NCBI RefSeq assembly: GCF_000027125.1
Contig: NC_017626.1
Length of the DNA stretch: 64,000 nt
Direction: 5' to 3' (one strand)
From: Escherichia coli 042
Lineage (GTDB): Bacteria > Pseudomonadota > Gammaproteobacteria > Enterobacterales > Enterobacteriaceae
This document shows, one piece after another, positions 4,620 to 63,898 of this stretch (position 1 is its first letter; each line of letters starts with the position of its first letter). A program made the position numbers and the translations under genes. The notes under the pieces were generated by a model. The model saw only the letters and a list, made by a program, of their open reading frames with translations. It searched no databases and was not told where the DNA came from.

Positions 4620-6161
<1,542 letters not shown>

Positions 6162-6229
6162 CCTTAAAGAAGCGTACTTTGCAGTGCTCACACAGATTGT
6201 CTGATGAAAATGAGCAGTAAAACCTCTAC

Positions 6230-6306
<77 letters not shown>

Positions 6307-6348
6307 AATTTGCACGGCAAATTTGAAGAGGTTTTAACTACATGTTAT

Positions 6349-6424
6349 GGGGCTATAGCTCAGCTGGGAGAGCGCCTGCTTTGCACGCAGGAGGTCTGCG
6401 GTTCGATCCCGCATAGCTCCACCA
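6349..6424 (+). tRNA. alaV: tRNA-Ala (TGC) in the 16S-23S spacer
   Basis: GGGGCTATAGCTCAGCTGGGAGAGCGCCTGCTTTGCACGCAGGAGGTCTGCGGTTCGATCCCGCATAGCTCCACCA, 76 nt. Confidence 0.97.
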
Positions 6425-6607
6425 TCTCTGTAGTGATTAAATAAAAAATACTTCAGAGTGTACCTGCAAAGGTTCACTGCGAAGTTTTGCTCTTTAAAAA
6501 TCTGGATCAAGCTGAAAATTGAAACACTGAACAACGAAAGTTGTTCGTGAGTCTCTCAAATTTTCGCAACACGATGATGAATCGAAAGAAACATCTTCGG
6601 GTTGTGA

Positions 6608-9513
<2,906 letters not shown>

Positions 9514-9606
9514 ACAACGCCGAAGATGTTTTGGCGGATAGAGAGAAGATTTTCAGCCTGATACAGATTAAATCAGAACGCAGAAGCGGTCTGATAAAAC
9601 AGAATT

Positions 9607-9726
9607 TGCCTGGCGGCCTTAGCGCGGTGGTCCCACCTGACCCCATGCCGAACTCAGAAGTGAAACGCCGTAGCGCCGATGGTAGTGTGGGGTCTCCCCA
9701 TGCGAGAGTAGGGAACTGCCAGGCAT
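9607..9726 (+). rRNA. rrfH: 5S ribosomal RNA (rrfH)
   Basis: TGCCTGGCGGCCTTAGCGCGGTGGTCCCACCTGACCCCATGCCGAACTCAGAAGTGAAACGCCGTAGCGCC...GGAACTGCCAGGCAT, 120 nt. Confidence 0.97.
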
Positions 9727-9778
9727 CAAATTAAGCAGTAAGCCGGTCATAAAACCGGTGGTTGTAAAAGAATTCGGT

Positions 9779-9855
9779 GGAGCGGTAGTTCAGTCGGTTA
9801 GAATACCTGCCTGTCACGCAGGGGGTCGCGGGTTCGAGTCCCGTCCGTTCCGCCA
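9779..9855 (+). tRNA. aspU: tRNA-Asp (GTC), distal tRNA of the rrnH operon
   Basis: GGAGCGGTAGTTCAGTCGGTTAGAATACCTGCCTGTCACGCAGGGGGTCGCGGGTTCGAGTCCCGTCCGTTCCGCCA, 77 nt. Confidence 0.97.
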
Positions 9856-18000: not shown

Positions 18001-18077
18001 GGAGCGGTAGTTCAGTCGGTTAGAATACCTGCCTGTCACGCAGGGGGTCGCGGGTTCGAGTCCCGTCCGTTCCGCCA
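18001..18077 (+). tRNA. aspV: tRNA-Asp (GTC), a known genomic-island integration hotspot
   Basis: Identical 77 nt sequence to the rrnH-distal tRNA-Asp; followed by a hairpin and T-run terminator around 18106..18137. Confidence 0.97.
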
Positions 18078-46025: not shown

Positions 46026-46337
46026 TTAACCTGTTGGGCTACAAATCAGGATGTCCGGTAAGGTGATTATTACTGAGTTAAGCACCTTACCGTTTTTTAA
46101 ATTTTTTGTCGCTGATATTCCAGACAGGAAAACAATATGCCTTTAGCTGCCAGATTAAACGACAAAGGTACCGGCACAGGGAAAGATCACGTAACGCTGC
46201 TTTTTTGTACTAAATAATTCGCATTTTATGTTTAAAATTTGAGATATTCCTCATTACCTGAGGCTGTTTTTTATTACTTATACATGATCAAATACTCCTT
46301 ACATAATTAAGGGGAACAAAATGGAACTTAAAAATTG

Positions 46338-47262
46338 ATGGAACATATTTCTGTTATTCCCGATTACAGACAAGCCTGGAAAGTGGAACATAAATTGTCG
46401 GATATTCTACTGTTGACTATTTGTGCCGTTATTTCGGGTGCAGAAGGTTGGGAAGATATAGAGGATTTTGGGGAAACACATCTCGATTTTTTAAAACAAT
46501 ACGGTGATTTTGAAAATGGTATTCCTGTTCACGATACCATCGCCAGAGTTGTATCCTGTATCAGTCCTGCAAAATTTCACGAGTGCTTTATTAACTGGAT
46601 GCGAGATTGCCATACTTCAGATGATAAAGACGTCATCGCAATTGATGGAAAAACGCTCCGGCACTCTTATGACAAGAGTCGCCGCAGGGGAGCGATTCAT
46701 GTCATTAGTGCGTTCTCAACAATGCACAGCCTGGTCATCGGACAGATCAAGACGGATGAGAAATCCAATGAGATTACAGCTATCCCAGAACTTCTTAACA
46801 TGCTGGATATTAAAGGAAAAATCATCACAACTGATGCGATGGGTTGCCAGAAAGATATTGCAGAGAAGATACAAAAACAGGGCGGTGATTATTTATTCGC
46901 TGTAAAAGGAAATCAGGGGCGGCTTAATAAAGCCTTTGAGGAAAAATTCCCACTGAAAGAATTAAATAATCCAGAGCATGACAGTTACGCAATGAGTGAA
47001 AAGAGTCACGGCAGAGAAGAAATCCGTCTTCATATTGTTTGCGATGTCCCTGATGAACTTATTGATTTCACGTTTGAATGGAAAGGACTGAAGAAATTAT
47101 GCGTGGCAGTCTCCTTTCGGTCCATAATAGCAGAACAAAAGAAAGAGCCAGAAATGACGGTCAGATATTATATCAGTTCTGCTGATTTAACCGCAGAGAA
47201 GTTCGCCACAGCAATCCGAAACCACTGGCACGTGGAGAATAAGCTGCACTGGCGTCTGGACG
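46338..47262 (+). CDS. ISAs1-family transposase (H-repeat-associated protein), exon 1 of intron-interrupted gene
   Basis: Matches the intact copy at 49523..50659 up to ...[14 protein letters not shown] 1 nt shorter A-run than in copy 2 removes the MELKKL leader, so the start shifts to the ATG at 46338. The ORF-track tail [10 protein letters not shown] is intron-encoded read-through. Confidence 0.75.
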
Positions 47263-49153
47263 GTGTGCCGCAGGAACACAAGATAGCTGCATAAGGATAC
47301 GCAGTTAGCTTTTGTATAAGCTCATAAAGAGATGGTGGAAGGCCCACCGGGATCGGCTGTCGGAAGCAGATTCCAAACCACTTCATGCTGCTGTGGTAAA
47401 GAGCCATGGTAGTGAGCGATGAAGTAAAGCGTGAGTGAAAACTCAGCAGGTAAGATACTCATGAGACGAGTGAACCCGAACCCATGTTGACGCGTCGTAA
47501 ACCAGAGACTGACATCAAAACCGAAGGGGCGTCCAGCCTTCGGGATAAGTCTGCGAGTGAATTCCGAATGCTGCGCAGACGGTGTCCGGCGTAAAGTGGG
47601 CGTGACGGAGTATCAGGCTCTTCCTGGGAACTGCGGGAACCTGTCGTTGTGATGATAAGGGAGAAATGCAAGTCACTGAATTGGCGAGCATGAAAGTACC
47701 GATGCACAGCACAGGGACGGAGCCGTTCGTAGTAGTGATGAAGCTTCTGTAATGGAGGTGGAGCGAAGGGGCGGCATCAGACAGTCTTTGGACAGTGTTC
47801 AACTGAACATGTTCAGGAGGAGACAATGACAAAGACAAAAGCGTTTAACATTGATAAGTCACTGGTGGTCAGCGCGTACAGGCGAGTGAAGACCAGTGCA
47901 GGCGCGGCGGGAATTGATAAGCAATCGCTGGCGGACTTTGATAAACGGTTAGTTGATAATCTGTACAAAATCTGGAACCGACTTTCTTCAGGAAGTTATT
48001 TCCCACCGGCAGTGAAAGCGGTGGCAATTCCGAAGAAATTGGGTGGAGAGAGAATTCTGGGTATCCCGACAGTCAGCGATCGTATCGCGCAGACGGTGGT
48101 AAAACTGGCCTTTGAGCCACAGGTTGAGCCACATTTTCTGGCAGACTCTTACGGCTACAGACCGAATAAATCGGCACTGGATGCTATAGGGGTAACGCGT
48201 AAGCGTTGCTGGTATTACGACTGGGTACTGGAATTTGACATCAAAGGGCTGTTCGATAACATCCCGCACGAACTGATAATGAAAGCCGTGGACAAACACA
48301 ATCCGGCCCGGTGGGTAAAATTGTATATACAGCGGTGGCTGACAGCGCCGATGGTGATGTCAGACGGAGAAGTCAGAGCACGAACAATGGGAACGCCGCA
48401 GGGAGGTGTCATAAGTCCGTTGCTGGCAAACCTGTTCATGCATTATGTGTTTGATAAATGGCTGGCAAAATATTATCCGAAAGTGCCGTGGTATCGATAT
48501 GCTGATGATGGCATTTTGCATTGTCACAGCGAAGCAGAAGCGACTGAAATGCGAGAAGTATTACGCAAAAGATTTAGCGAATGCGGACTGGAAATGCATC
48601 CGGAGAAAACGCGAGTTATCTACTGCAAAGATGGAAGCCGGAAGGGTGATTATGAACATACCATGTTCGACTTTCTGGGGTACACATTCAGGCGACGCGT
48701 AGTAAAGAACGTTAAGCGAAACAGTCTGTTTGTAAGTTTTACCCCCGCAGCGAGCAAATCAGCGCTAAAGGCAATGCGTCGGGAAATCAAAGCGACAGGG
48801 ATAAGGAAAAGAGTGGATTTAAGCATTGAGCAGATAGCGAAATGGATAAATCCAAAACTGAATGGCTGGATAAATTATTACGGGCGATATACCTGTTCGG
48901 AATTATACAGCGTGTTCAGATATATCAATAAAGCACTGGTGAGGTGGGGGCGTAAGAAATATAAAATGCTCAGCCGATACAAGACAAGAGCCTCAAAATT
49001 TCTGGAAGAAATGGCGAAGCGAAGTCCACAGTTGTTTGCCCACTGGCGTCTGAAGATGAGAGGCGGACTTGTTTGATGGGAGCGGTATGAGCCGAGAGGT
49101 TCACGTACCGTTCTGCGAGAGGCTGCGGGGGAGGTTCCTGCGGCCTACTCACC
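47263..49153 (+). mobile_element. Group II intron (about 1.9 kb) inserted in the transposase gene
   Basis: Insert begins GTGTG (GUGYG consensus), contains the RT/maturase ORF in the position of domain IV, has a domain V-like hairpin (GAGCGGTATGAGCCGAGAGGTTCACGTACCGTTC, about 49080..49114) and ends just before the exon 2 sequence seen in the intact copy. Boundaries are good to about 1 nt. Confidence 0.8.
47826..49076 (+). CDS. Group II intron-encoded reverse transcriptase/maturase
   Basis: 416 aa; RT motifs including YADD ([11 protein letters not shown]) and a C-terminal maturase (domain X) region. Confidence 0.88.
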
Positions 49154-49347
49154 TGGTAATGAATGAAGACGACTGCAAAATAAGAAGAGGAAATGCAGCA
49201 GAATTATTTTCAGGGATACGGCACATCGCTATTAATATTTTGACGAATGATAAGGTATTCAAGGCAGGGTTAAGACGTAAGATGCGAAAAGCAGCCATGG
49301 ACAGAAACTATCTGGCGTCAGTCCTTGCGGGGTGCGGGCTTTCGTAA
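49154..49347 (+). CDS. ISAs1-family transposase, exon 2 (C-terminal 64 codons)
   Basis: Encodes [63 protein letters not shown], nearly identical to the C-terminus of the intact copy; joins exon 1 in frame. Confidence 0.75.
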
Positions 49348-49378: not shown

Positions 49379-50669
49379 CAGGGAAAGATCATCAGAAGTA
49401 CACTTTTTGTACTAAACAATTCGCATTTTATGTTTAAAAATTGAGATATTCCTCATTACCTGAAGCTGTTTTTTATTGCTTATACATGATCAAATACTCC
49501 TTACATAATTAAGGAGAACAAAATGGAACTTAAAAAATTGATGGAGCATATTTCTATTATCCCCGATTACAGACAAGCCTGGAAAGTGGAACATAAATTA
49601 TCGGATATTCTACTGTTGACTATTTGTGCCGTTATTTCTGGTGCAGAAGGTTGGGAAGATATAGAGGATTTTGGGGAAACACATCTCGATTTTTTGAAGC
49701 AATATGGTGATTTTGATAATGGTATTCCTGTTCACGATACCATTGCCAGAGTTGTATCCTGTATCAGTCCTGCAAAATTTCACGAGTGCTTTATTAACTG
49801 GATGCGTGACTGCCATTCTTCAGATGATAAAGACGTCATTGCAATTGATGGAAAAACGCTCCGACACTCTTATGACAAGAGTCGCCGCAGGGGAGCGATT
49901 CATGTCATTAGTGCGTTCTCAACAATGCACAGCCTGGTCATCGGACAGATCAGGACGGATGAGAAATCTAATGAGATTACAGCTATCCCTGAACTTATTA
50001 ACATGCTGGATATTAAAGGAAAAATCATCACAACTGATGCGATGGGTTGCCAGAAAGATATTGCAGAGAAGATACAAAAACAGGGAGGTGATTATTTATT
50101 CGCTGTAAAAGGAAACCAGGGGCGGCTAAATAAAGCCTTCGAGGAAAAATTTCTGCTGAAAGAATTAAATAATCCAGAGCATGACAGTTACGCAATTAGT
50201 GAAAAGAGTCACGGCAGAGAAGAAATCCGTCTTCACATTGTTTGCGATGTCCCTGATGAACTTATTGATTTCACGTTTGAATGGAAAGGTCTGAAGAAAT
50301 TATGCGTGGCAGTCTCCTTTCGGTCAATAATAGCAGAACAAAAGAAAGAGCCCCAAATGACGGTCAGATATTATATCAGTTCTGCTGATTTAACCGCAGA
50401 GAAGTTCGCCACAGCAATCCGAAACCACTGGCACGTGGAGAATAAGCTGCACTGGCGTCTGGACGTGGTAATGAATGAAGACGACTGCAAAATAAGAAGA
50501 GGAAACGCAGCAGAATTATTTTCAGGGATACGGCACATTGCTATTAATATTTTGACGAATGATAAGGTATTCAAGGCAGGGTTAAGACGTAAGATGCGAA
50601 AAGCAGCCATGGACAGAAACTACCTGGCGTCAGTCCTTGCGGGGAGCGGGCTTTCGTAATCTTGCCCTG
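49379..50669 (+). mobile_element. ISAs1-family (H-repeat) insertion sequence, copy 2 (intact), in tandem 21 bp after copy 1
   Basis: Inverted repeats CAGGGAAAGATCATC and TTCGTAATCTTGCCCTG at the ends; 1291 bp. Confidence 0.8.
49523..50659 (+). CDS. ISAs1-family transposase (H-repeat-associated protein), intact
   Basis: 378 aa, [50 protein letters not shown]...; DDE-type H-repeat transposase. Confidence 0.88.
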
Positions 50670-56841: not shown

Positions 56842-56976
<135 letters not shown>

Positions 56977-57040
56977 CCTGAAAATACTTAAATCAATCTT
57001 CGCCGGGGGCCATGCGCTCCCGCTGTTGTGGAGGTTACCC

Positions 57041-58519: not shown

Positions 58520-58810
58520 ACTGCTTATTCCTTGATAAAACGGTTACACACGCCAGGACGGCAAAATGGATCCCAAATCGGAATAGTCTGGATTTGGAAG
58601 GCTCACATTATCACCAAAAGAGTTTTACGCAAGCCTGTCGGCGCAGGGTTTACAAATTTAGCACAGGGGCAGTTTTCATTAGTCCGAAAAGCGCATGTAT
58701 CATTTATTTCCTAAGATTATGAAACCTCAATAGTAATATGCAAATAAGCAATTAATAATCCCGTTTACTCCTCCGGTCTTTTAAAATTCTCCCCTTCATT
58801 CAGCCGGTTT

Positions 58811-59569
58811 ATGTCCTTCATGTCTTCGTTCTTTCACGGCAGATTTCTGCATCCAGGCGTGTTTTCGTTATGCGTTTTGCTCCCTTTACTCGCCAGCGCC
58901 ACCACATCACATATCTCTTTCAGCTACGCCGCCCGCCAGCGGATGCAAAACCGTGCGCGTTTATTAAAACAGTACCAAACCCATCTGAAAAAACAGGCCA
59001 GCTATATTGTGGAAGGCAATGCCGAAAGCAGAAAGGCGCTGCGCCAGCACAACCGCGAACAGATAAAACAGCATCCAGAATGGTTTCCTGCGCCGCTCAA
59101 GGCGAGTGACAGACGCTGGCAGGCGCTGGCGGAGAACAACCATTTCTTAAGCAGCGACCATCTGCACAACATCACCGAAGTGGCGATTCACCGCCTGGAG
59201 CAGCAGCTTGGTAAGCCTTACGTCTGGGGCGGCACGCGGCCCGATCAAGGCTTCGACTGTAGCGGGTTGGTTTTTTATGCCTACAACAAGATCCTCGAGG
59301 CGAAGCTCCCGCGCACGGCCAATGAGATGTATCACTACCATCGGGCAACGATTGTGGCGAATAACGACCTGCGCCGGGGAGATTTGCTGTTTTTCCATAT
59401 TCACAGCCGTGAGATTGCCGATCATATGGGCGTGTATCTGGGAGACGGTCAGTTTATCGAGTCGCCGCGCACCGGGGAAACCATTCGGGTAAGTCGGTTA
59501 GCTGAACCTTTCTGGCAGGATCATTTTTTAGGCGCGCGCAGGATTTTGACGGAAGAGACGATTTTGTAG
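58811..59569 (+). CDS. yafL: NlpC/P60-family peptidase lipoprotein YafL
   Basis: 252 aa; NlpC/P60 catalytic region (DCSGLVFYAY with catalytic Cys, downstream His). Confidence 0.88.
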   Translation: MSFMSSFFHGRFLHPGVFSLCVLLPLLASATTSHISFSYAARQRMQNRARLLKQYQTHLKKQASYIVEGNAESRKALRQHNREQIKQHPEWFPAPLKASDRRWQALAENNHFLSSDHLHNITEVAIHRLEQQLGKPYVWGGTRPDQGFDCSGLVFYAYNKILEAKLPRTANEMYHYHRATIVANNDLRRGDLLFFHIHSREIADHMGVYLGDGQFIESPRTGETIRVSRLAEPFWQDHFLGARRILTEETIL

Positions 59570-59650
59570 GACGGATAAGGCGTTCACGCCGCATCCGGCA
59601 ATAGTGCACCGATGCCTGATGCGACGCTGCCGCGTCTTATCATGCCTACG
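59570..59650. repeat. REP pair (BIME) downstream of yafL
   Basis: GGACGGATAAGGCGTTCACGCCGCATCCGGCA and GATGCCTGATGCGACGCTGCCGCGTCTTATCATGCCTAC. Confidence 0.85.
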
Positions 59651-59745
59651 AGTCTGCGAATTTTTTGCGAGCTGCTTTCCCGATATAACACAACTTCATT
59701 GTCGACTTTTCCTTTTCTTCTTATCGTTGAGAAAAAGGAGTCGCC

Positions 59746-60243
59746 ATGTCTGAATATCGTCGTTATTACATCAAGGGGGGAACATGGTTTTTCACGGTAC
59801 ATTTACGGAATCGTCGAAGCCAACTTTTGACCACCCAGTACCAGACACTCCGTAACGCCATTATTAAAGTTAAGCAGGCCAGACCTTTTGAAATTAACGC
59901 CTGGGTAGTTTTGCCAGAGCATATGCACTGTATCTGGACATTACCCGAAAGTGATGATGATTTTTCCTCTCGCTGGCGGGAGATTAAAAAGCAGTTCACC
60001 CATGCTTGCGGATTGAAAAATATCTGGCAACCGCGTTTTTGGGAGCATGCCATTCGCAATACAAAAGATTATCGCCATCATGTTGATTATATTTATATAA
60101 ATCCAGTGAAACATGGCTGGGTAAAGCAGGTGAGTGATTGGCCATTCTCAACGTTCCATCGCGATGTAGCGCGAGGGTTATATCCCATTGATTGGGCGGG
60201 AGACATAACGGATTTTAGTGCCGGGGAGCGTATTATTTTATAA
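59746..60243 (+). CDS. rayT: REP-associated tyrosine transposase RayT (YafM; HUH Y1 transposase)
   Basis: 165 aa with HUH motif (HMHCIW) and C-terminal catalytic Tyr region; flanked on both sides by REP sequences. Confidence 0.9.
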   Translation: MSEYRRYYIKGGTWFFTVHLRNRRSQLLTTQYQTLRNAIIKVKQARPFEINAWVVLPEHMHCIWTLPESDDDFSSRWREIKKQFTHACGLKNIWQPRFWEHAIRNTKDYRHHVDYIYINPVKHGWVKQVSDWPFSTFHRDVARGLYPIDWAGDITDFSAGERIIL

Positions 60244-60665
60244 TTGTGCGCGGATGCCTGATGCGACGCAGGCGCGTCTTATCATGCCTACAAACTTGTG
60301 CCGGATCGGTGGGCCGGATAAGGCGTTCACACCGCATCCGGCAATTGTGCACCGGTGCCTGATGCGACGCTGGCGCGTCTTATCATGCCTACAAACCTGT
60401 GCCGGATCGGTGGGCCGGATAAGGCGTTCACACCGCATCCGGTAATTGTGCACCGGTGCCTGATGCGACGCTGGCGCGTCTTATCATGCCTACAAACCTG
60501 TGCCGGATCGGTGGGCTGGATAAGGCGTTCACACCGCATCCGGCAATTGTGCGCAGATGCCTGATGCGACGCTGACGCGTCTTATCATGCCTACAAACTT
60601 GTGCCGGATCGGTAGGCCGGATAAGGCGTTCACGCCGCATCCGGCAATTGTGCACCGATGCCGGA
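60244..60665. repeat. Tandem REP/BIME array of about four 101 bp units downstream of rayT
   Basis: TGCCTGATGCGACGC recurs at about 60255, 60357, 60458 and 60559 (101 to 102 bp period); each unit holds two REP palindromes in opposite orientation. Confidence 0.88.
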
Positions 60666-60681
60666 TTCGCCCCAAAGGCCA

Positions 60682-62775
60682 TCAACTCAACGCCCCCATA
60701 ATCTTCAACTCCAGCTCATCCGGCACTTCGTTATACGACAGCACATGCAGACCCGGCGCAAACAACCTTGCATAACGCGCCAGCAAAGGACGCAGCTGCG
60801 GCGGCACCAGCAGCACAGGGGCTTTCCCCGCTGCTTTCATCTGCTCCTTCACCTGCGGCATCGTACTCTGGAACTGGTTGAGCATATTCGGGTCAACCGG
60901 CACGCTGTCGAGCATCACTTTGCCGGCCTGTTGCGCCTGATTCACCACATTGGTCAGCAGATTTTCCAGCTCATTATTCAGCGTATACACCGTCAGCTCC
61001 TGTTTGCGAACGAACGGATGGGTAATGCTGCGCCGCAGCGCCAGGCGCACATCGGCCGCCAGCAGAATATGATCTTTGGTCAATGTGCTACTGGCGACCA
61101 GCACAGTGGCGATGGTGACGATATCGCGCAGGGAAACGCCTTCGGTCAGTAATGCACGGTACACTTTCAGCAACTGGCTGTAATTGAGCGCTGCGCTCAA
61201 ATCTTCCGCCAGTCGCGGTGCCATCGACGACAAACGATTATGCAACTGCGTAATATCGTCATAGTTAAATAAATCAGGAATATAGCTGCGCACAATCTTA
61301 TTCACATGGGTGGCAATCACGCTGGCGCTGTCGATCACCTGATACCCCATATTCAGCGCCTTCGCTTTCTGCGCGGGCTGGATCCAGGTCACCGGCATCC
61401 CGTACGCCGGGTCGTTCCCCAGCACGCCGTCAATCTCGCCGTAGGTTTCGCTGGAGGGCAGGGCCATCAGTTTATCCGCCGGAATATCCGCTTCATCAGC
61501 CTTAATGCCATTGATGAAAATGGCGTACTGGCTGGGCTTGAGGCGGAAGTTTTCCCGAATACGGATCTCCGGCAGCAGCACGCCGTTGCCGTCGGAAATC
61601 ACCTGCCGCACGCCGCGAATCCGCTGGGTGAGCGGGTTACCTTGGGCTTTATCGACTAGCGCCACCAGCTTGTAGCCGAGGCTTAAGCTGATGGGCTCGA
61701 TCAGCGGAATGGTTTCCCAACTGACCTGTTGCTCGCTGGTTTCGGTGATGGTTCGGGTCAGCGTTTCGAGGCTTTTCTCCTCCGCCTCCGCCGCCTGCGG
61801 GCGTTTGCTCATCCGCCAGCCGGTAAAGCCAAGCAGGGCGCTGAACAGCAAAAATGGCAGATGCGGCATCCCCGGCACCACCGCCAGCACAAACATGATC
61901 CCGGTGGCGGTGTAGAGCACCGACGGGCTTGCCAGCAGCTGGTGGCGCACGTCATGGGCGATATCGCCGTTGTCGCTGACGCGGGTGACGATAATTGCCG
62001 CTGCGGTGGAGAGCAGCAGGGACGGGATCTGCGCCACCAGCCCGTCGCCGATGGTCATCAGCACATACTGCTGGAAGGCGGCGTCGGCGCTCAGGTTGTA
62101 TTTGAAGATGCCGATACAGACGCCGCCGATCAGGTTGATCGCCAGAATCATCATCCCGGCGATGGCGTCCCCGCGCACAAACTTCGATGCCCCGTCCATC
62201 GCGCCGTAGAAATCGGCCTCGCTGGCAACATCTTTACGCCGGGTTTGCGCCTGCGCCTGGTTGATCAACCCAGCGTTAAGATCGGCGTCAATCGCCATCT
62301 GTTTACCGGGCATCGCGTCTAAGGTAAAGCGGGCAGAAACCTCGGAAATACGCTCGGCCCCTTTGGTGACGACGATAAAGTTGATGATCATCAGGATGAT
62401 AAACACCACAAAGCCGACGACAAAGTTGCCGCCAATCACCACCTGACCAAATGACTCAATTACCTTACCCGCCGCGCCCGCGCCGAGATGCCCGTGCAGC
62501 AACACCACGCGCGTAGAAGCAACGTTGAGCGTCAGGCGCATTAAGGTGGTGATCAGCAAAATGGTCGGGAACAGGCTGAATTCCAGCGGCCTTTTCGCTG
62601 ACACCGCCACCAGCAGTACCATCACCGCCAGCACAATGTTGAAGGTGAACAGAATATCCAGCAGCGCAGGCGGCAGCGGCAAAATAACCATCGCCAGAAT
62701 ACACAGGATCACCAGCGGCACGCCGAGATTGCCGCCGCGCAGTAGCGCGAGGAACGATTTAGTTGTTTTCGCCAT
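60682..62775 (-). CDS. lfhA: Flagellar type III export apparatus protein FlhA paralog (Flag-2 locus)
   Basis: 697 aa full-length FlhA-family protein (N-terminal transmembrane domain, FHIPEP region, cytoplasmic C-terminal domain); located next to rayT where the Flag-2 cluster begins. Confidence 0.85.
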   Translation of the reverse strand: MAKTTKSFLALLRGGNLGVPLVILCILAMVILPLPPALLDILFTFNIVLAVMVLLVAVSAKRPLEFSLFPTILLITTLMRLTLNVASTRVVLLHGHLGAGAAGKVIESFGQVVIGGNFVVGFVVFIILMIINFIVVTKGAERISEVSARFTLDAMPGKQMAIDADLNAGLINQAQAQTRRKDVASEADFYGAMDGASKFVRGDAIAGMMILAINLIGGVCIGIFKYNLSADAAFQQYVLMTIGDGLVAQIPSLLLSTAAAIIVTRVSDNGDIAHDVRHQLLASPSVLYTATGIMFVLAVVPGMPHLPFLLFSALLGFTGWRMSKRPQAAEAEEKSLETLTRTITETSEQQVSWETIPLIEPISLSLGYKLVALVDKAQGNPLTQRIRGVRQVISDGNGVLLPEIRIRENFRLKPSQYAIFINGIKADEADIPADKLMALPSSETYGEIDGVLGNDPAYGMPVTWIQPAQKAKALNMGYQVIDSASVIATHVNKIVRSYIPDLFNYDDITQLHNRLSSMAPRLAEDLSAALNYSQLLKVYRALLTEGVSLRDIVTIATVLVASSTLTKDHILLAADVRLALRRSITHPFVRKQELTVYTLNNELENLLTNVVNQAQQAGKVMLDSVPVDPNMLNQFQSTMPQVKEQMKAAGKAPVLLVPPQLRPLLARYARLFAPGLHVLSYNEVPDELELKIMGALS

Positions 62776-63898
62776 CCAGTTTAAGCACCTCTTTGGGAAT
62801 GGAAATATGTCTGTTCAGGGCCGGGCGCGGCTGTGCACCATCGCGCCAGTGTTTCATTTGCAGGACGTAGGTCAGAACGTGGGCGATAGCCCGGTAAAGC
62901 TGAAAAGGAATTTGCTGATTCACCTGAGTGGTGTAGTAAACCGAGCGCGCCAGCCGCGGGAACTCGACCACTTCCACCTGACTTTCAGCAGCGACCTGGC
63001 GAATATAGAGGGCGATTTCATCGGTGCCTTTCGCCACCACAAACGGCGCGGCGGCACGCGACTGGTCATACTGCAACGCCACGGCGTAGTGGGTCGGGTT
63101 GGTGATCACCACGTTGGCCTTTGGCACCACTTTGCGAATTTGCCCCATCGCCAGTTGCCGTTGCAGCCGCCGCACGCGCGCCTTCACTTCCGGCTTGCCT
63201 TCCTGATTTTTGTACTCTTCTTTCAGTTTTTGTTTGGTCATCTTCAGCCCTTTGGTGAACAGGGCTTTCGCCAGCGGCACGTCGAGAAGCGCAAAGAAAA
63301 TAAACAGGATGACAAAGTTGCGCATCACGCTGGCGTAGAGCGACAAACCGTCATTCATCGCCAGTTTGAACGGCAGCGCCTGCAGGCCGAGAAAGGCGGC
63401 AAAGTTATTGCGCAGGCTTACCCACAGCATCACCAGCACCACGGCAGACTTCACCGTCATCTTTCCCGTTTCCGCCAGATGTTCACTGGAAAACAGCCGC
63501 CTAATCCCTTTTAACGGACTGATTTTGCTGAAATCCGGGAGGATTTTTTTCGGCAGAAACAGCCAGCCGCCGGGCACCAGTGAGGAGAGCAGCGCGGCGG
63601 CGGGCATTGGCAGCAAGGTAAGAATAAACTTGCCGAGAATTAACAGGTGATGGCGCAGAAACTGGCCGATAGCGTCCGGGTTATTAATCTCCTGCGCGTA
63701 CTGATGCACGCTGATAAAACTCTCGCGCACAAAATCGGCATACCACGGGAAGCTGCTGGAGATCACCACAAACGCCGCAAACAGGCTCGCCGCCAGCCCC
63801 ATATCCTTCGAGCGCGGCAGTTGCCCCTCTTCACGCGCTTTACGCAGCTTTTGCGCCGAGGGTTTCTCTGTTTTTTCTTCGCTGCTGCTATCCGCCAT
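62759..63898 (-). CDS. lfhB: Flagellar export apparatus protein FlhB paralog (Flag-2 locus)
   Basis: 379 aa FlhB-family protein with NPTH autocleavage motif (VITNPTHYAVAL); overlaps lfhA by 17 bp. Confidence 0.85.
   Translation of the reverse strand: MADSSSEEKTEKPSAQKLRKAREEGQLPRSKDMGLAASLFAAFVVISSSFPWYADFVRESFISVHQYAQEINNPDAIGQFLRHHLLILGKFILTLLPMPAAALLSSLVPGGWLFLPKKILPDFSKISPLKGIRRLFSSEHLAETGKMTVKSAVVLVMLWVSLRNNFAAFLGLQALPFKLAMNDGLSLYASVMRNFVILFIFFALLDVPLAKALFTKGLKMTKQKLKEEYKNQEGKPEVKARVRRLQRQLAMGQIRKVVPKANVVITNPTHYAVALQYDQSRAAAPFVVAKGTDEIALYIRQVAAESQVEVVEFPRLARSVYYTTQVNQQIPFQLYRAIAHVLTYVLQMKHWRDGAQPRPALNRHISIPKEVLKLDGENN

What the first reader, a model, noticed from the sequence alone, without database searches (positions are those of the whole stretch)
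59570..60665. rayT flanked by REP sequences, including a four-unit 101 bp tandem REP array
The HUH tyrosine transposase RayT is bracketed by REP palindromes on both sides. The downstream array is unusually regular: four direct 101 bp repeats, each holding an inverted REP pair. This fits RayT-mediated REP proliferation. The array could be misread as a CRISPR or as overlapping small ORFs, which the ORF track shows as MPDATLARLIMPTNL-type peptides.
Basis: partly seen in the sequence, partly recalled or inferred. Interest (0 to 1): 0.35.

Follow-up and report, generated by a model that had tools for sequence, protein, structure and literature searches.

The report
E. coli rayT with REP array
This is the well-described E. 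coli "REPtron": the single-copy domesticated transposase gene rayT sitting between yafL and lfhA, with one pair of REP palindromes upstream and a tandem array of four such pairs downstream. It is real but ordinary and already published.

Summary
TRF finds a 101-bp tandem repeat at 60242-60666 (4.2 copies, 94% matches). Each unit holds one y REP (GTAG head on the minus strand) and one z REP (plus strand) in inverted orientation. A fifth z-y pair lies at 59566-59649, upstream of the 165-aa ORF at 59746-60243.

That ORF is RayT/TnpAREP. It matches PDB 4ER8 at E = 5e-113, differs from K-12 RayT at 8 of 165 residues, passes the NCBIfam equivalog model, and keeps every published catalytic and metal-binding residue.

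The window is E. coli, and the locus (yafL-rayT-lfhA) is the "REPtron" described by Nunvar 2010, Ton-Hoang 2012 and Messing 2012. Those papers already report one BIME on the left, a variable number on the right, hicAB replacement in some strains, and in vitro cleavage and recombination.

My strain comparison shows 1-4 units at this site. The four-unit form with GTGG-headed z REPs belongs to one lineage (about 3% of complete genomes). It is stable there and is often hit by ISEc31.

Eight palindromic units is within the known range of 1-12, so the array is not "unusually regular". It is neither a CRISPR nor coding. Whether RayT drove the amplification remains unproven. Verdict: already known, low interest.

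The parts
58811..59569 (+). yafL (NlpC/P60, C40 peptidase), the left flanking gene. Its TAG stop (59567-59569) lies inside the GTAG head of the upstream z REP.
   Evidence: Pfam NLPC_P60 E = 3e-33. Annotated yafL in near-identical genomes. Stop/REP overlap read from the sequence.
59566..59600 (+). Upstream z REP (GTAGGACGGATAAGGCGTTCACGCCGCATCCGGCA). It equals the REP listed for K-12 rayt by Nunvar 2010. It matches 31 of the 32 nt of the REP co-crystallised with TnpAREP (the K-12 oligo has TTTACG where the window has TTCACG).
   Evidence: 1 mismatch to consensus. (Nunvar Table 1). (crystallised oligo GTAGGACGGATAAGGCGTTTACGCCGCATCCG).
59613..59649 (-). Upstream y REP (an iREP ending in CTAC on the + strand). 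With the z REP it forms the single left-hand BIME, tail-to-tail.
   Evidence: Rfam naRNA4 (RF02564) hit 59569-59646, 73.1 bits.
59746..60243 (+). rayT (tnpAREP, formerly yafM), 165 aa. H59-M60-H61, Y115, N119, H123, E161 and K82 are all present. It differs from K-12 RayT at 8 residues. H19 is seen only in this window among the seven rayT alleles compared.
   Evidence: PDB 4ER8 E = 4.8e-113. NCBIfam NF047646 equivalog, 176 bits against a cut-off of 80. Residue check. Residue roles from Messing 2012.
60242..60666 (.). Tandem BIME-2 array: 4.2 units of 101 bp. Unit layout: 13-nt tail-to-tail linker, 37-nt y iREP, 17-nt head-to-head linker, 34-35-nt z REP. It begins inside the rayT stop codon and ends 15 nt before the lfhA stop codon.
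60255..60594 (-). The four y REPs of the array (60255-60291, 60356-60392, 60457-60493, 60558-60594). All keep the GTAG head and have invariant stems. They differ only in the loop.
60309..60646 (+). The four z REPs of the array (60309-60343, 60410-60444, 60511-60545, 60612-60646). The first three have a GTGG head and a G-to-A change that weakens the upper stem. The fourth is a perfect consensus copy with GTAG.
60682..62775 (-). lfhA (Flag-2 FlhA homologue), intact at 697 aa. It is the right flanking gene and converges on rayT across the array.
   Evidence: Pfam FHIPEP E = 2e-242. Annotation in relatives.

Best explanation
This is the Escherichia coli REPtron. It consists of the single-copy, vertically inherited, domesticated Y1/HUH transposase gene rayT (tnpAREP, yafM) at its fixed chromosomal site between yafL and lfhA. 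The gene is embedded in the same REP sequences (y and z palindromic units arranged as BIME-2) that are scattered in hundreds of copies through the genome.

How it works, shown for the K-12 orthologue (8 of 165 residues different): RayT binds a single-stranded REP hairpin through its bulged stem and its 5' GTAG head. It cleaves at CT dinucleotides nearby and can join strands, which in vitro assembles tandem BIMEs.

Inferred: the four-unit array arose by local amplification of one variant 101-bp unit. Units 2 and 3 are the youngest copies, at 98% identity. The cause was either RayT acting through the intact y REPs, or ordinary repeat recombination or slippage.

Inferred from work on other REP clusters: once transcribed, the array probably also serves as a shared 3' element for the convergent rayT and lfhA transcripts, acting as a partial terminator and a decay block. 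The REPs that overlap or closely follow the yafL and rayT stop codons may dampen translation of those genes.
For: - Protein identity: 4ER8 E = 4.8e-113; NCBIfam REP_Tyr_transpos equivalog; catalytic residues intact.
- REP/BIME architecture.
- Synteny: yafJ-dpaA-yafL-rayT-lfhA-lfhB. Most complete E. coli genomes share the locus: 3,366 of 5,426 have a place covering at least 80% of rayT + array + lfhA end.
- Published descriptions of exactly this locus: E. coli rayt is flanked by BIME-2 on both sides; one BIME on the left and a variable number on the right, hicAB replacement, and in vitro cleavage and recombination; crystal structure with the upstream REP.
- My strain comparison reproduces that variability: 4, 2, 1 and 3 units, a 4 x 99-bp variant, hicAB, and an empty site.
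- Each z-y pair passes the Rfam gathering score for naRNA4, a model of REP325, which the literature describes as alternating Z2 and Y units.
- Unit identities point to recent duplication of U2/U3.
Against: Nothing contradicts the identification. The uncertainty is in the mechanism.

- No in vivo demonstration of RayT-driven BIME amplification exists (one search found no circular intermediates).
- Three of the four amplified z REPs carry GTGG, and E. coli TnpAREP tolerates no GTAG mutation in vitro.
- REP numbers differ little between strains with and without rayT.
- The array is unchanged across the lineage members examined, so there is no sign of ongoing activity.
- The consensus scan found no terminator in the array and no promoter for rayT.
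Confidence: 0.93

Rival explanations
1. The array grew without RayT, by unequal homologous recombination or replication slippage between 101-bp direct repeats. On this view RayT's presence next to it reflects only where the ancestral element landed.
For: - Units 1-3 carry z REPs with GTGG heads and a weakened stem, which are predicted non-substrates for E. coli TnpAREP. They were nevertheless the ones amplified.
- A different lineage amplified a 99-bp unit whose y REP is degraded, with a CGAC head.
- REP abundance differs little with or without rayT.
- No circular BIME intermediates were seen in the mobilome data.
Against: - All y REPs in the array keep GTAG and have invariant stems, so each unit still offers one canonical RayT site.
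- TnpAREP builds tandem BIMEs by strand transfer in vitro.
- O157:H7, whose rayT is a pseudogene, has only one unit. This is anecdotal.
Confidence: 0.4
2. The array is maintained mainly as a regulatory 3'-UTR element for its neighbours. It would act as a partial Rho-dependent terminator and an exonuclease block between the convergent rayT and lfhA genes. REP hairpins within 15 nt of the yafL and rayT stop codons would stall ribosomes and reduce the yield of those proteins. This does not exclude the best explanation.
For: - rayT and lfhA converge on the array.
- The upstream z REP overlaps the yafL stop codon, and a y REP starts 11 nt after the rayT stop. The reported limit for REP-mediated translational down-regulation is 15 nt.
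- REP325, which has the same Z2/Y architecture, acts as a terminator and stabiliser, and REPs between convergent genes correlate with higher expression of both.
Against: - Nothing was tested for this locus.
- Copy number varies from 0 to 4 units among strains, and hicAB replaces the whole module in many. That argues against strong selection for a particular array.
- The terminator scan found nothing in the array.
- Published REP effects are context dependent.
Confidence: 0.35
3. The repeats are a CRISPR array, or they encode repeated small proteins (the MPDATLARLIMPTNL-type ORFs).
For: There are regularly spaced palindromic repeats. ORFs of 69-85 aa run through the array on both strands. PGAP calls a 'hypothetical protein' over the equivalent array in some genomes.
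Against: - The sequences between the palindromes are the same conserved linkers in every unit, not unique spacers.
- The neighbours checked in the window are yafJ, dpaA, yafL, lfhA and lfhB, not cas genes.
- The repeats are the genome-wide y and z REPs.
- The ORFs exist on both strands and in several frames purely because the DNA is repeated.
Confidence: 0.01

Closest known systems
E. coli K-12 MG1655 REPtron (yafL - BIME - tnpAREP/rayT/yafM - BIMEs - fhiA/lfhA); Nunvar 2010, Ton-Hoang 2012, Messing 2012 (PDB 4ER8)
   Same: Same chromosomal site and the same gene (8 of 165 residues differ, catalytic residues identical). Same y and z REPs, a single BIME on the left, and tandem BIMEs on the right.
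   Different: This window has four right-hand units against two in K-12. Three z REPs have a GTGG head and a G-to-A stem change. dinJ-yafQ is absent upstream, and lfhA/lfhB are intact (Flag-2 not deleted). RayT carries H19 where the six other alleles compared carry N19.
REP325 / naRNA4 (Rfam RF02564), the 12-unit Z2/Y BIME-2 cluster between yjdM and yjdN
   Same: Alternating z and y palindromic units in tandem. Every tail-to-tail z-y pair here matches the full 77-nt model at 72-80 bits against a gathering score of 59.5.
   Different: It is a different locus with 8 rather than 12 units. It lies between convergent genes rather than within an operon. The nucleoid-condensing role once claimed for naRNA4 is disputed.
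REPIN-RAYT systems of Pseudomonas fluorescens (Bertels and Rainey 2011)
   Same: A single-copy domesticated Y1 transposase associated with inverted REP doublets of about 100 bp, which are thought to be its non-autonomous substrates.
   Different: It is a different RAYT group and a different REP sequence. E. coli BIMEs form tandem arrays with variable linkers. I did not compare these systems directly here.
IS200/IS605 family insertion sequences (for example IS608, ISDra2)
   Same: A Y1 HUH transposase flanked by subterminal imperfect hairpins with a 5' guide tetranucleotide, with single-strand cleavage and strand transfer.
   Different: RayT is a monomer with a C-terminal extension. It binds the GTAG head base-specifically and cleaves at loosely positioned CT sites. 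The gene does not move as a unit. Pfam-A returned no family at E <= 0.001 for this protein.

Membership tests
RAYT / TnpAREP (REP-associated tyrosine transposase) | Y1 HUH nuclease fold with an HUH motif, a single catalytic tyrosine and the RAYT-specific metal ligands and C-terminal extension | tested here: met
   4ER8 E = 4.8e-113 over residues 1-164. NCBIfam NF047646 equivalog, 176.4 bits against a cut-off of 80. H59, M60, H61, Y115, N119, H123, E161 and K82 are present (roles).
REPtron | The rayT gene is flanked on both sides by REPs with a GT(A/G)G head, including an inverted pair across the gene | tested here: met
   z(+) 59566 and y(-) 59613 lie upstream. y(-) 60255 and z(+) 60309 onwards lie downstream.
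REPtron | The flanking REPs are the same sequences that occur dispersed at high copy in the host genome | tested here: met
   Three further copies lie at 56843-56978 in the window. The 101-nt unit alone matches a median of 11 places. The source genome beyond the 64-kb window could not be examined.
REPtron (E. coli type) | A unique conserved chromosomal position between yafL and fhiA/lfhA, with a single BIME on the left and a variable number on the right | tested here: met
   Synteny. The left BIME is single in the six rayT-bearing loci mapped, though in L004 only its z REP passed the scan (its y REP is degenerate). The right side has 1-4 units. This matches.
REPtron | RayT binds and cleaves its flanking REPs | not testable with these tools
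   Shown in vitro for the K-12 protein. It has not been shown for this allele, nor for GTGG-headed z REPs.
BIME-2 | Tandem units of alternating y and z2 REPs in inverse orientation, separated by short linkers | tested here: met
   The alternation and the 13-nt and 17-nt linkers are shown. Full-length matches to the REP325-derived model support the Z2/Y type.
BIME-2 | The z unit is of subtype z2 rather than z1 | tested here: inconclusive
   Nunvar 2010 calls the rayT-flanking units Y and Z2. The Messing 2012 figure legend labels them y and z1. I had no z1 or z2 consensus text to score against.
CRISPR array | Identical repeats separated by unique spacers, usually with cas genes nearby | tested here: not met
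   The inter-palindrome segments are conserved linkers repeated in each unit. The neighbours checked are yafJ, dpaA, yafL, lfhA and lfhB.

The most novel reading that the evidence does not exclude
The units amplified in this lineage are those whose z REP has lost the GTAG head (now GTGG) and part of its stem. One reading is that in vivo E. coli RayT needs only the y REP of a BIME, or tolerates GTGG. That would make this natural array a ready-made test of which REP of a pair drives amplification. A second reading concerns the REP that starts 11 nt after the rayT stop codon: the array might act as a copy-number-dependent brake on RayT's own expression. Neither is excluded by my evidence, and neither is supported beyond the sequence layout.
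Probability: 0.1. Interest if true: 0.3.

Novelty: already known. Interest (0 to 1): 0.08.

Why it matters
It matters little beyond correct annotation. The locus is the type example of a REPtron and has been characterised genetically, biochemically and structurally.

Its practical value is as a caution. The array should be masked as REP/BIME, not called as CRISPR or as hypothetical proteins, which PGAP does in some genomes.

The one mildly useful detail is a natural contrast for the still-open question of how BIME arrays amplify in vivo. All four y REPs are canonical, while three of the four z REPs are GTGG-headed and were nonetheless co-amplified.

Tried and rejected
- A fuzzy-regex REP scan missed obvious copies. 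I replaced it with an ungapped Hamming scan.
- The repeat finder reported no inverted repeats for the REPs, because their bulged stems lack a 9-nt exact seed. Folding showed the hairpins instead.
- Pfam-A gave no family for RayT at E <= 0.001. NCBIfam and PDB identified it.
- The promoter and terminator consensus scan gave counts no higher than shuffles and nothing in the array, so I make no claim of an intrinsic terminator.
- ssDNA folding z-scores for a full unit (-1.4) and for the y REP (-1.2) are unremarkable. The structure argument rests on conservation and the literature, not on energy.
- The CRISPR and coding readings were considered and rejected.
- I could not measure the full distribution of array sizes over all 5,426 genomes. 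I have only ranked samples of 40 and 60 rows plus 12 fetched loci.
- In the rows where the match also pulled in the upstream BIME (H51-54, H66-67), the spans are not reliable unit counts.

Full report
**1. The observation**

- Tandem Repeats Finder reports one array at 60242-60666 with period 101, 4.2 copies, 94% matches and no indels, score 745.
- The repeat finder gives the same 101-bp spacing. It also finds a related copy upstream at 59566-59656 that is 87-90% identical over 91 nt to the three full downstream copies.
- My first fuzzy-regex scan missed obvious copies, so I used an ungapped scan with y and z REP consensus sequences.
- That scan places z(+) 59566-59600 and y(-) 59613-59649 upstream of the ORF.
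- Downstream it places y(-)/z(+) pairs at 60255/60309, 60356/60410, 60457/60511 and 60558/60612.
- The whole 64-kb window holds only 13 such sites, against none in any of 20 shuffles. Ten of the 13 are at this locus and the other three lie at 56843-56978.
- As single-stranded DNA the REPs fold into imperfect hairpins.

**2. What it is**

The ORF at 59746-60243 (165 aa) is RayT/TnpAREP.
- It matches the crystallised E. coli TnpAREP (PDB 4ER8) at E = 4.8e-113.
- It scores 176 bits against the NCBIfam equivalog 'REP-associated tyrosine transposase', whose cut-off is 80.
- Pfam-A returned nothing at E <= 0.001.
- It differs from K-12 RayT at 8 of 165 residues.
- It retains H59-M60-H61, Y115, N119, H123, E161 and K82. 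Messing et al. identify these as the HUH motif, the catalytic tyrosine, the metal ligands and a key hairpin contact.

The neighbours are yafJ, dpaA/yafK and yafL on the left, and lfhA and lfhB (the Flag-2 FlhA and FlhB homologues) on the right. Megablast against 5,426 complete E. coli genomes finds the locus annotated as yafL-rayT-flhA. The best match is strain BEC1-S17-ESBL-09 at 99.9% identity.

**3. Anatomy of the array**

Each 101-bp unit has four parts:
- a 13-nt tail-to-tail linker;
- a 37-nt y REP, read as an iREP ending in CTAC on the + strand;
- a 17-nt head-to-head linker;
- a 34-35-nt z REP.

The array starts inside the rayT TAA stop codon. It ends with a partial fifth unit 15 nt before the lfhA stop codon.

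Units 2 and 3 are 98% identical, and the other pairs are 92-95% identical. All differences fall in the linkers, the y loop, and the head, stem and loop of z. The y stems are invariant.

The z REPs of units 1-3 carry a GTGG head and a G-to-A change that removes pairs from the upper stem. The z REP of unit 4 and the upstream z REP keep GTAG.

Rfam's naRNA4 model (RF02564) matches every tail-to-tail z-y pair end to end, at 72-80 bits against a gathering score of 59.5. That model is derived from REP325, which is described as alternating Z2 and Y units. This supports assigning the array to BIME-2.

**4. Comparison across strains**

| Locus | Strain | State of the yafL-lfhA interval |
|---|---|---|
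| window, L001 | this window, BEC1-S17-ESBL-09 | four 101-bp units |
| L002 | K-12 | two units |
| L003 | O157:H7 | one unit; rayT has an internal stop |
| L005 | FXCREC180 | three units |
| L004 | GN05476 | four 99-bp units built from a different variant (degraded y REP with a CGAC head, different linker) |
| L007 | CDF6 | hicAB replaces the module; no REPs |
| L006 | MS1718 | neither rayT nor REPs; only GTAGGACGG remains at the yafL stop |

- In a ranked sample of 60 genomes, the rayT-to-lfhA spans correspond to 1-4 units, with none longer.
- The GTGG-headed unit is at least 99% identical in only 174 of 5,442 matching records. The next band falls to about 90%, so this unit marks one lineage.
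- Lineage members L008-L011 still have four y and four z REPs. They also carry ISEc31 inserted at the CTAC head of unit 2's y REP, with an ACA target duplication.
- L012 has an IS-adjacent deletion in addition.
- The four-unit array therefore predates the IS and has been stable within the lineage.

**5. How it most likely works**

Shown, for the K-12 protein:
- TnpAREP binds single-stranded REPs through the bulged stem and the GTAG head.
- It cleaves at CT dinucleotides 5' or 3' of the REP.
- It performs strand transfer that can assemble tandem BIMEs in vitro.

Inferred:
- The array here arose by diversification followed by local amplification, as in Ton-Hoang's model. U2/U3 is the most recent duplication.

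Not shown:
- It is not established that RayT did this in vivo.
- Any single change in GTAG abolishes binding and cleavage by the E. coli enzyme, so the three GTGG z REPs are predicted non-substrates. If RayT acted, it acted through the y REPs.
- Otherwise the expansion came from ordinary recombination or slippage between 101-bp repeats. The sequence cannot decide between these.

Separately, REP clusters of this type act as partial Rho-dependent terminators and mRNA stabilisers. REPs within 15 nt of a stop codon are reported to reduce translation. At this locus the yafL stop lies inside a REP head, the rayT stop is 11 nt from a REP, and rayT and lfhA converge on the array. These regulatory roles are plausible but untested here. 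The simple consensus scan found no terminator in the array.

**6. Comparison with the known, and novelty**

- Nunvar et al. 2010 state that E. coli rayt (yafM) is delimited by Y and Z2 units and flanked by BIME-2 on both sides.
- Ton-Hoang et al. 2012 describe the REPtron between yafL and fhiA in 74 of 110 genomes. They report an invariant single BIME on the left, a variable number on the right, hicAB replacement, precise excision and IS rearrangements.
- REP clusters of 1-12 palindromic units are standard in K-12.

Every defining feature I could test is met; the exceptions are enzyme activity, which cannot be tested with these tools, and the z1/z2 subtype, which stayed inconclusive. The finding is therefore already known, and the array is not unusually regular. 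It is not a CRISPR, because the 'spacers' are conserved linkers and the neighbours checked are not cas genes. The small ORFs are repeat artefacts, which PGAP occasionally annotates as hypothetical proteins.

**7. Verdict**

Novelty: already known. Interest is about 0.08. The only detail of modest value is the lineage-specific amplification of units whose z REP lacks the GTAG head, which could serve as a natural test substrate for the amplification mechanism.

Noticed in passing
window 47334-49153 (intron); 46332-47276 and 49153-49344 (exons); 49523-50659 (second copy): A group II intron interrupts an ISAs1-type (DDE_Tnp_1 plus DDE_Tnp_1_assoc) transposase gene. The intron shows Rfam D1-D4 and domain V/VI hits and has a 416-aa RT/maturase ORF at 47826-49076. 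tblastn places transposase residues 5-319 before the intron and 315-378 just after it. An intact 378-aa copy lies immediately downstream.
   Followed up: partly
window 18001-18077 and about 19500-46000: A second tRNA-Asp (aspV-like) is followed by a type VI secretion cluster. I identified TssM/IcmF, ClpV, TssK, TssF, TssC/VipB and VgrG. The cluster fills most of the 39 kb between this tRNA and yafJ.
   Followed up: partly
window 4620-9855: A complete rrn operon: 16S, tRNA-Ile, tRNA-Ala, 23S and 5S, then tRNA-Asp. Rfam also reports a StyR-44 hit just upstream of the 23S gene.
   Followed up: no
window 56843-56978: A separate small BIME cluster (z, y, then a degenerate z) lies just upstream of yafJ. 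Its first z-y pair is the best naRNA4 hit in the window, at 80 bits.
   Followed up: no
window 58520-58810, compared with L002 168-709: The dinJ-yafQ toxin-antitoxin pair lies between dpaA and yafL in K-12 and O157:H7. It is absent from this window and from its close relatives.
   Followed up: no
window 60682-63898: lfhA (697 aa) and lfhB (379 aa) are intact, so the Flag-2 lateral flagellar cluster is not truncated here. K-12 and even the closest rayT-locus match (BEC1-S17-ESBL-09) have the lfhA-lafU deletion scar.
   Followed up: no
L008-L012 (for example L009 1240-2500), equivalent to window about 60393-60396: In many relatives of this lineage, ISEc31 (IS3 family) is inserted at the CTAC head of the second y REP of the array, with a 3-bp ACA duplication. 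In one strain (JNE25-003) the IS is followed by a deletion that removes the rest of the array and lfhA.
   Followed up: yes
L006 1671-1767: This is an 'empty' yafL-lfhA interval with neither rayT nor REPs. It keeps only GTAGGACGG at the yafL stop, followed by a short GC-rich hairpin (CCCTCGCCCCAAAGGGGCGAGGGG). The form differs from the two loss types described by Ton-Hoang, which are hicAB replacement and excision that retains the BIMEs.
   Followed up: partly
window 59800-59802 (RayT codon 19): RayT here has His19, where the six other alleles compared have Asn19, including two that are otherwise identical in protein sequence. The residue lies two positions from R21, which contacts DNA near the GTAG head.
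   Followed up: no
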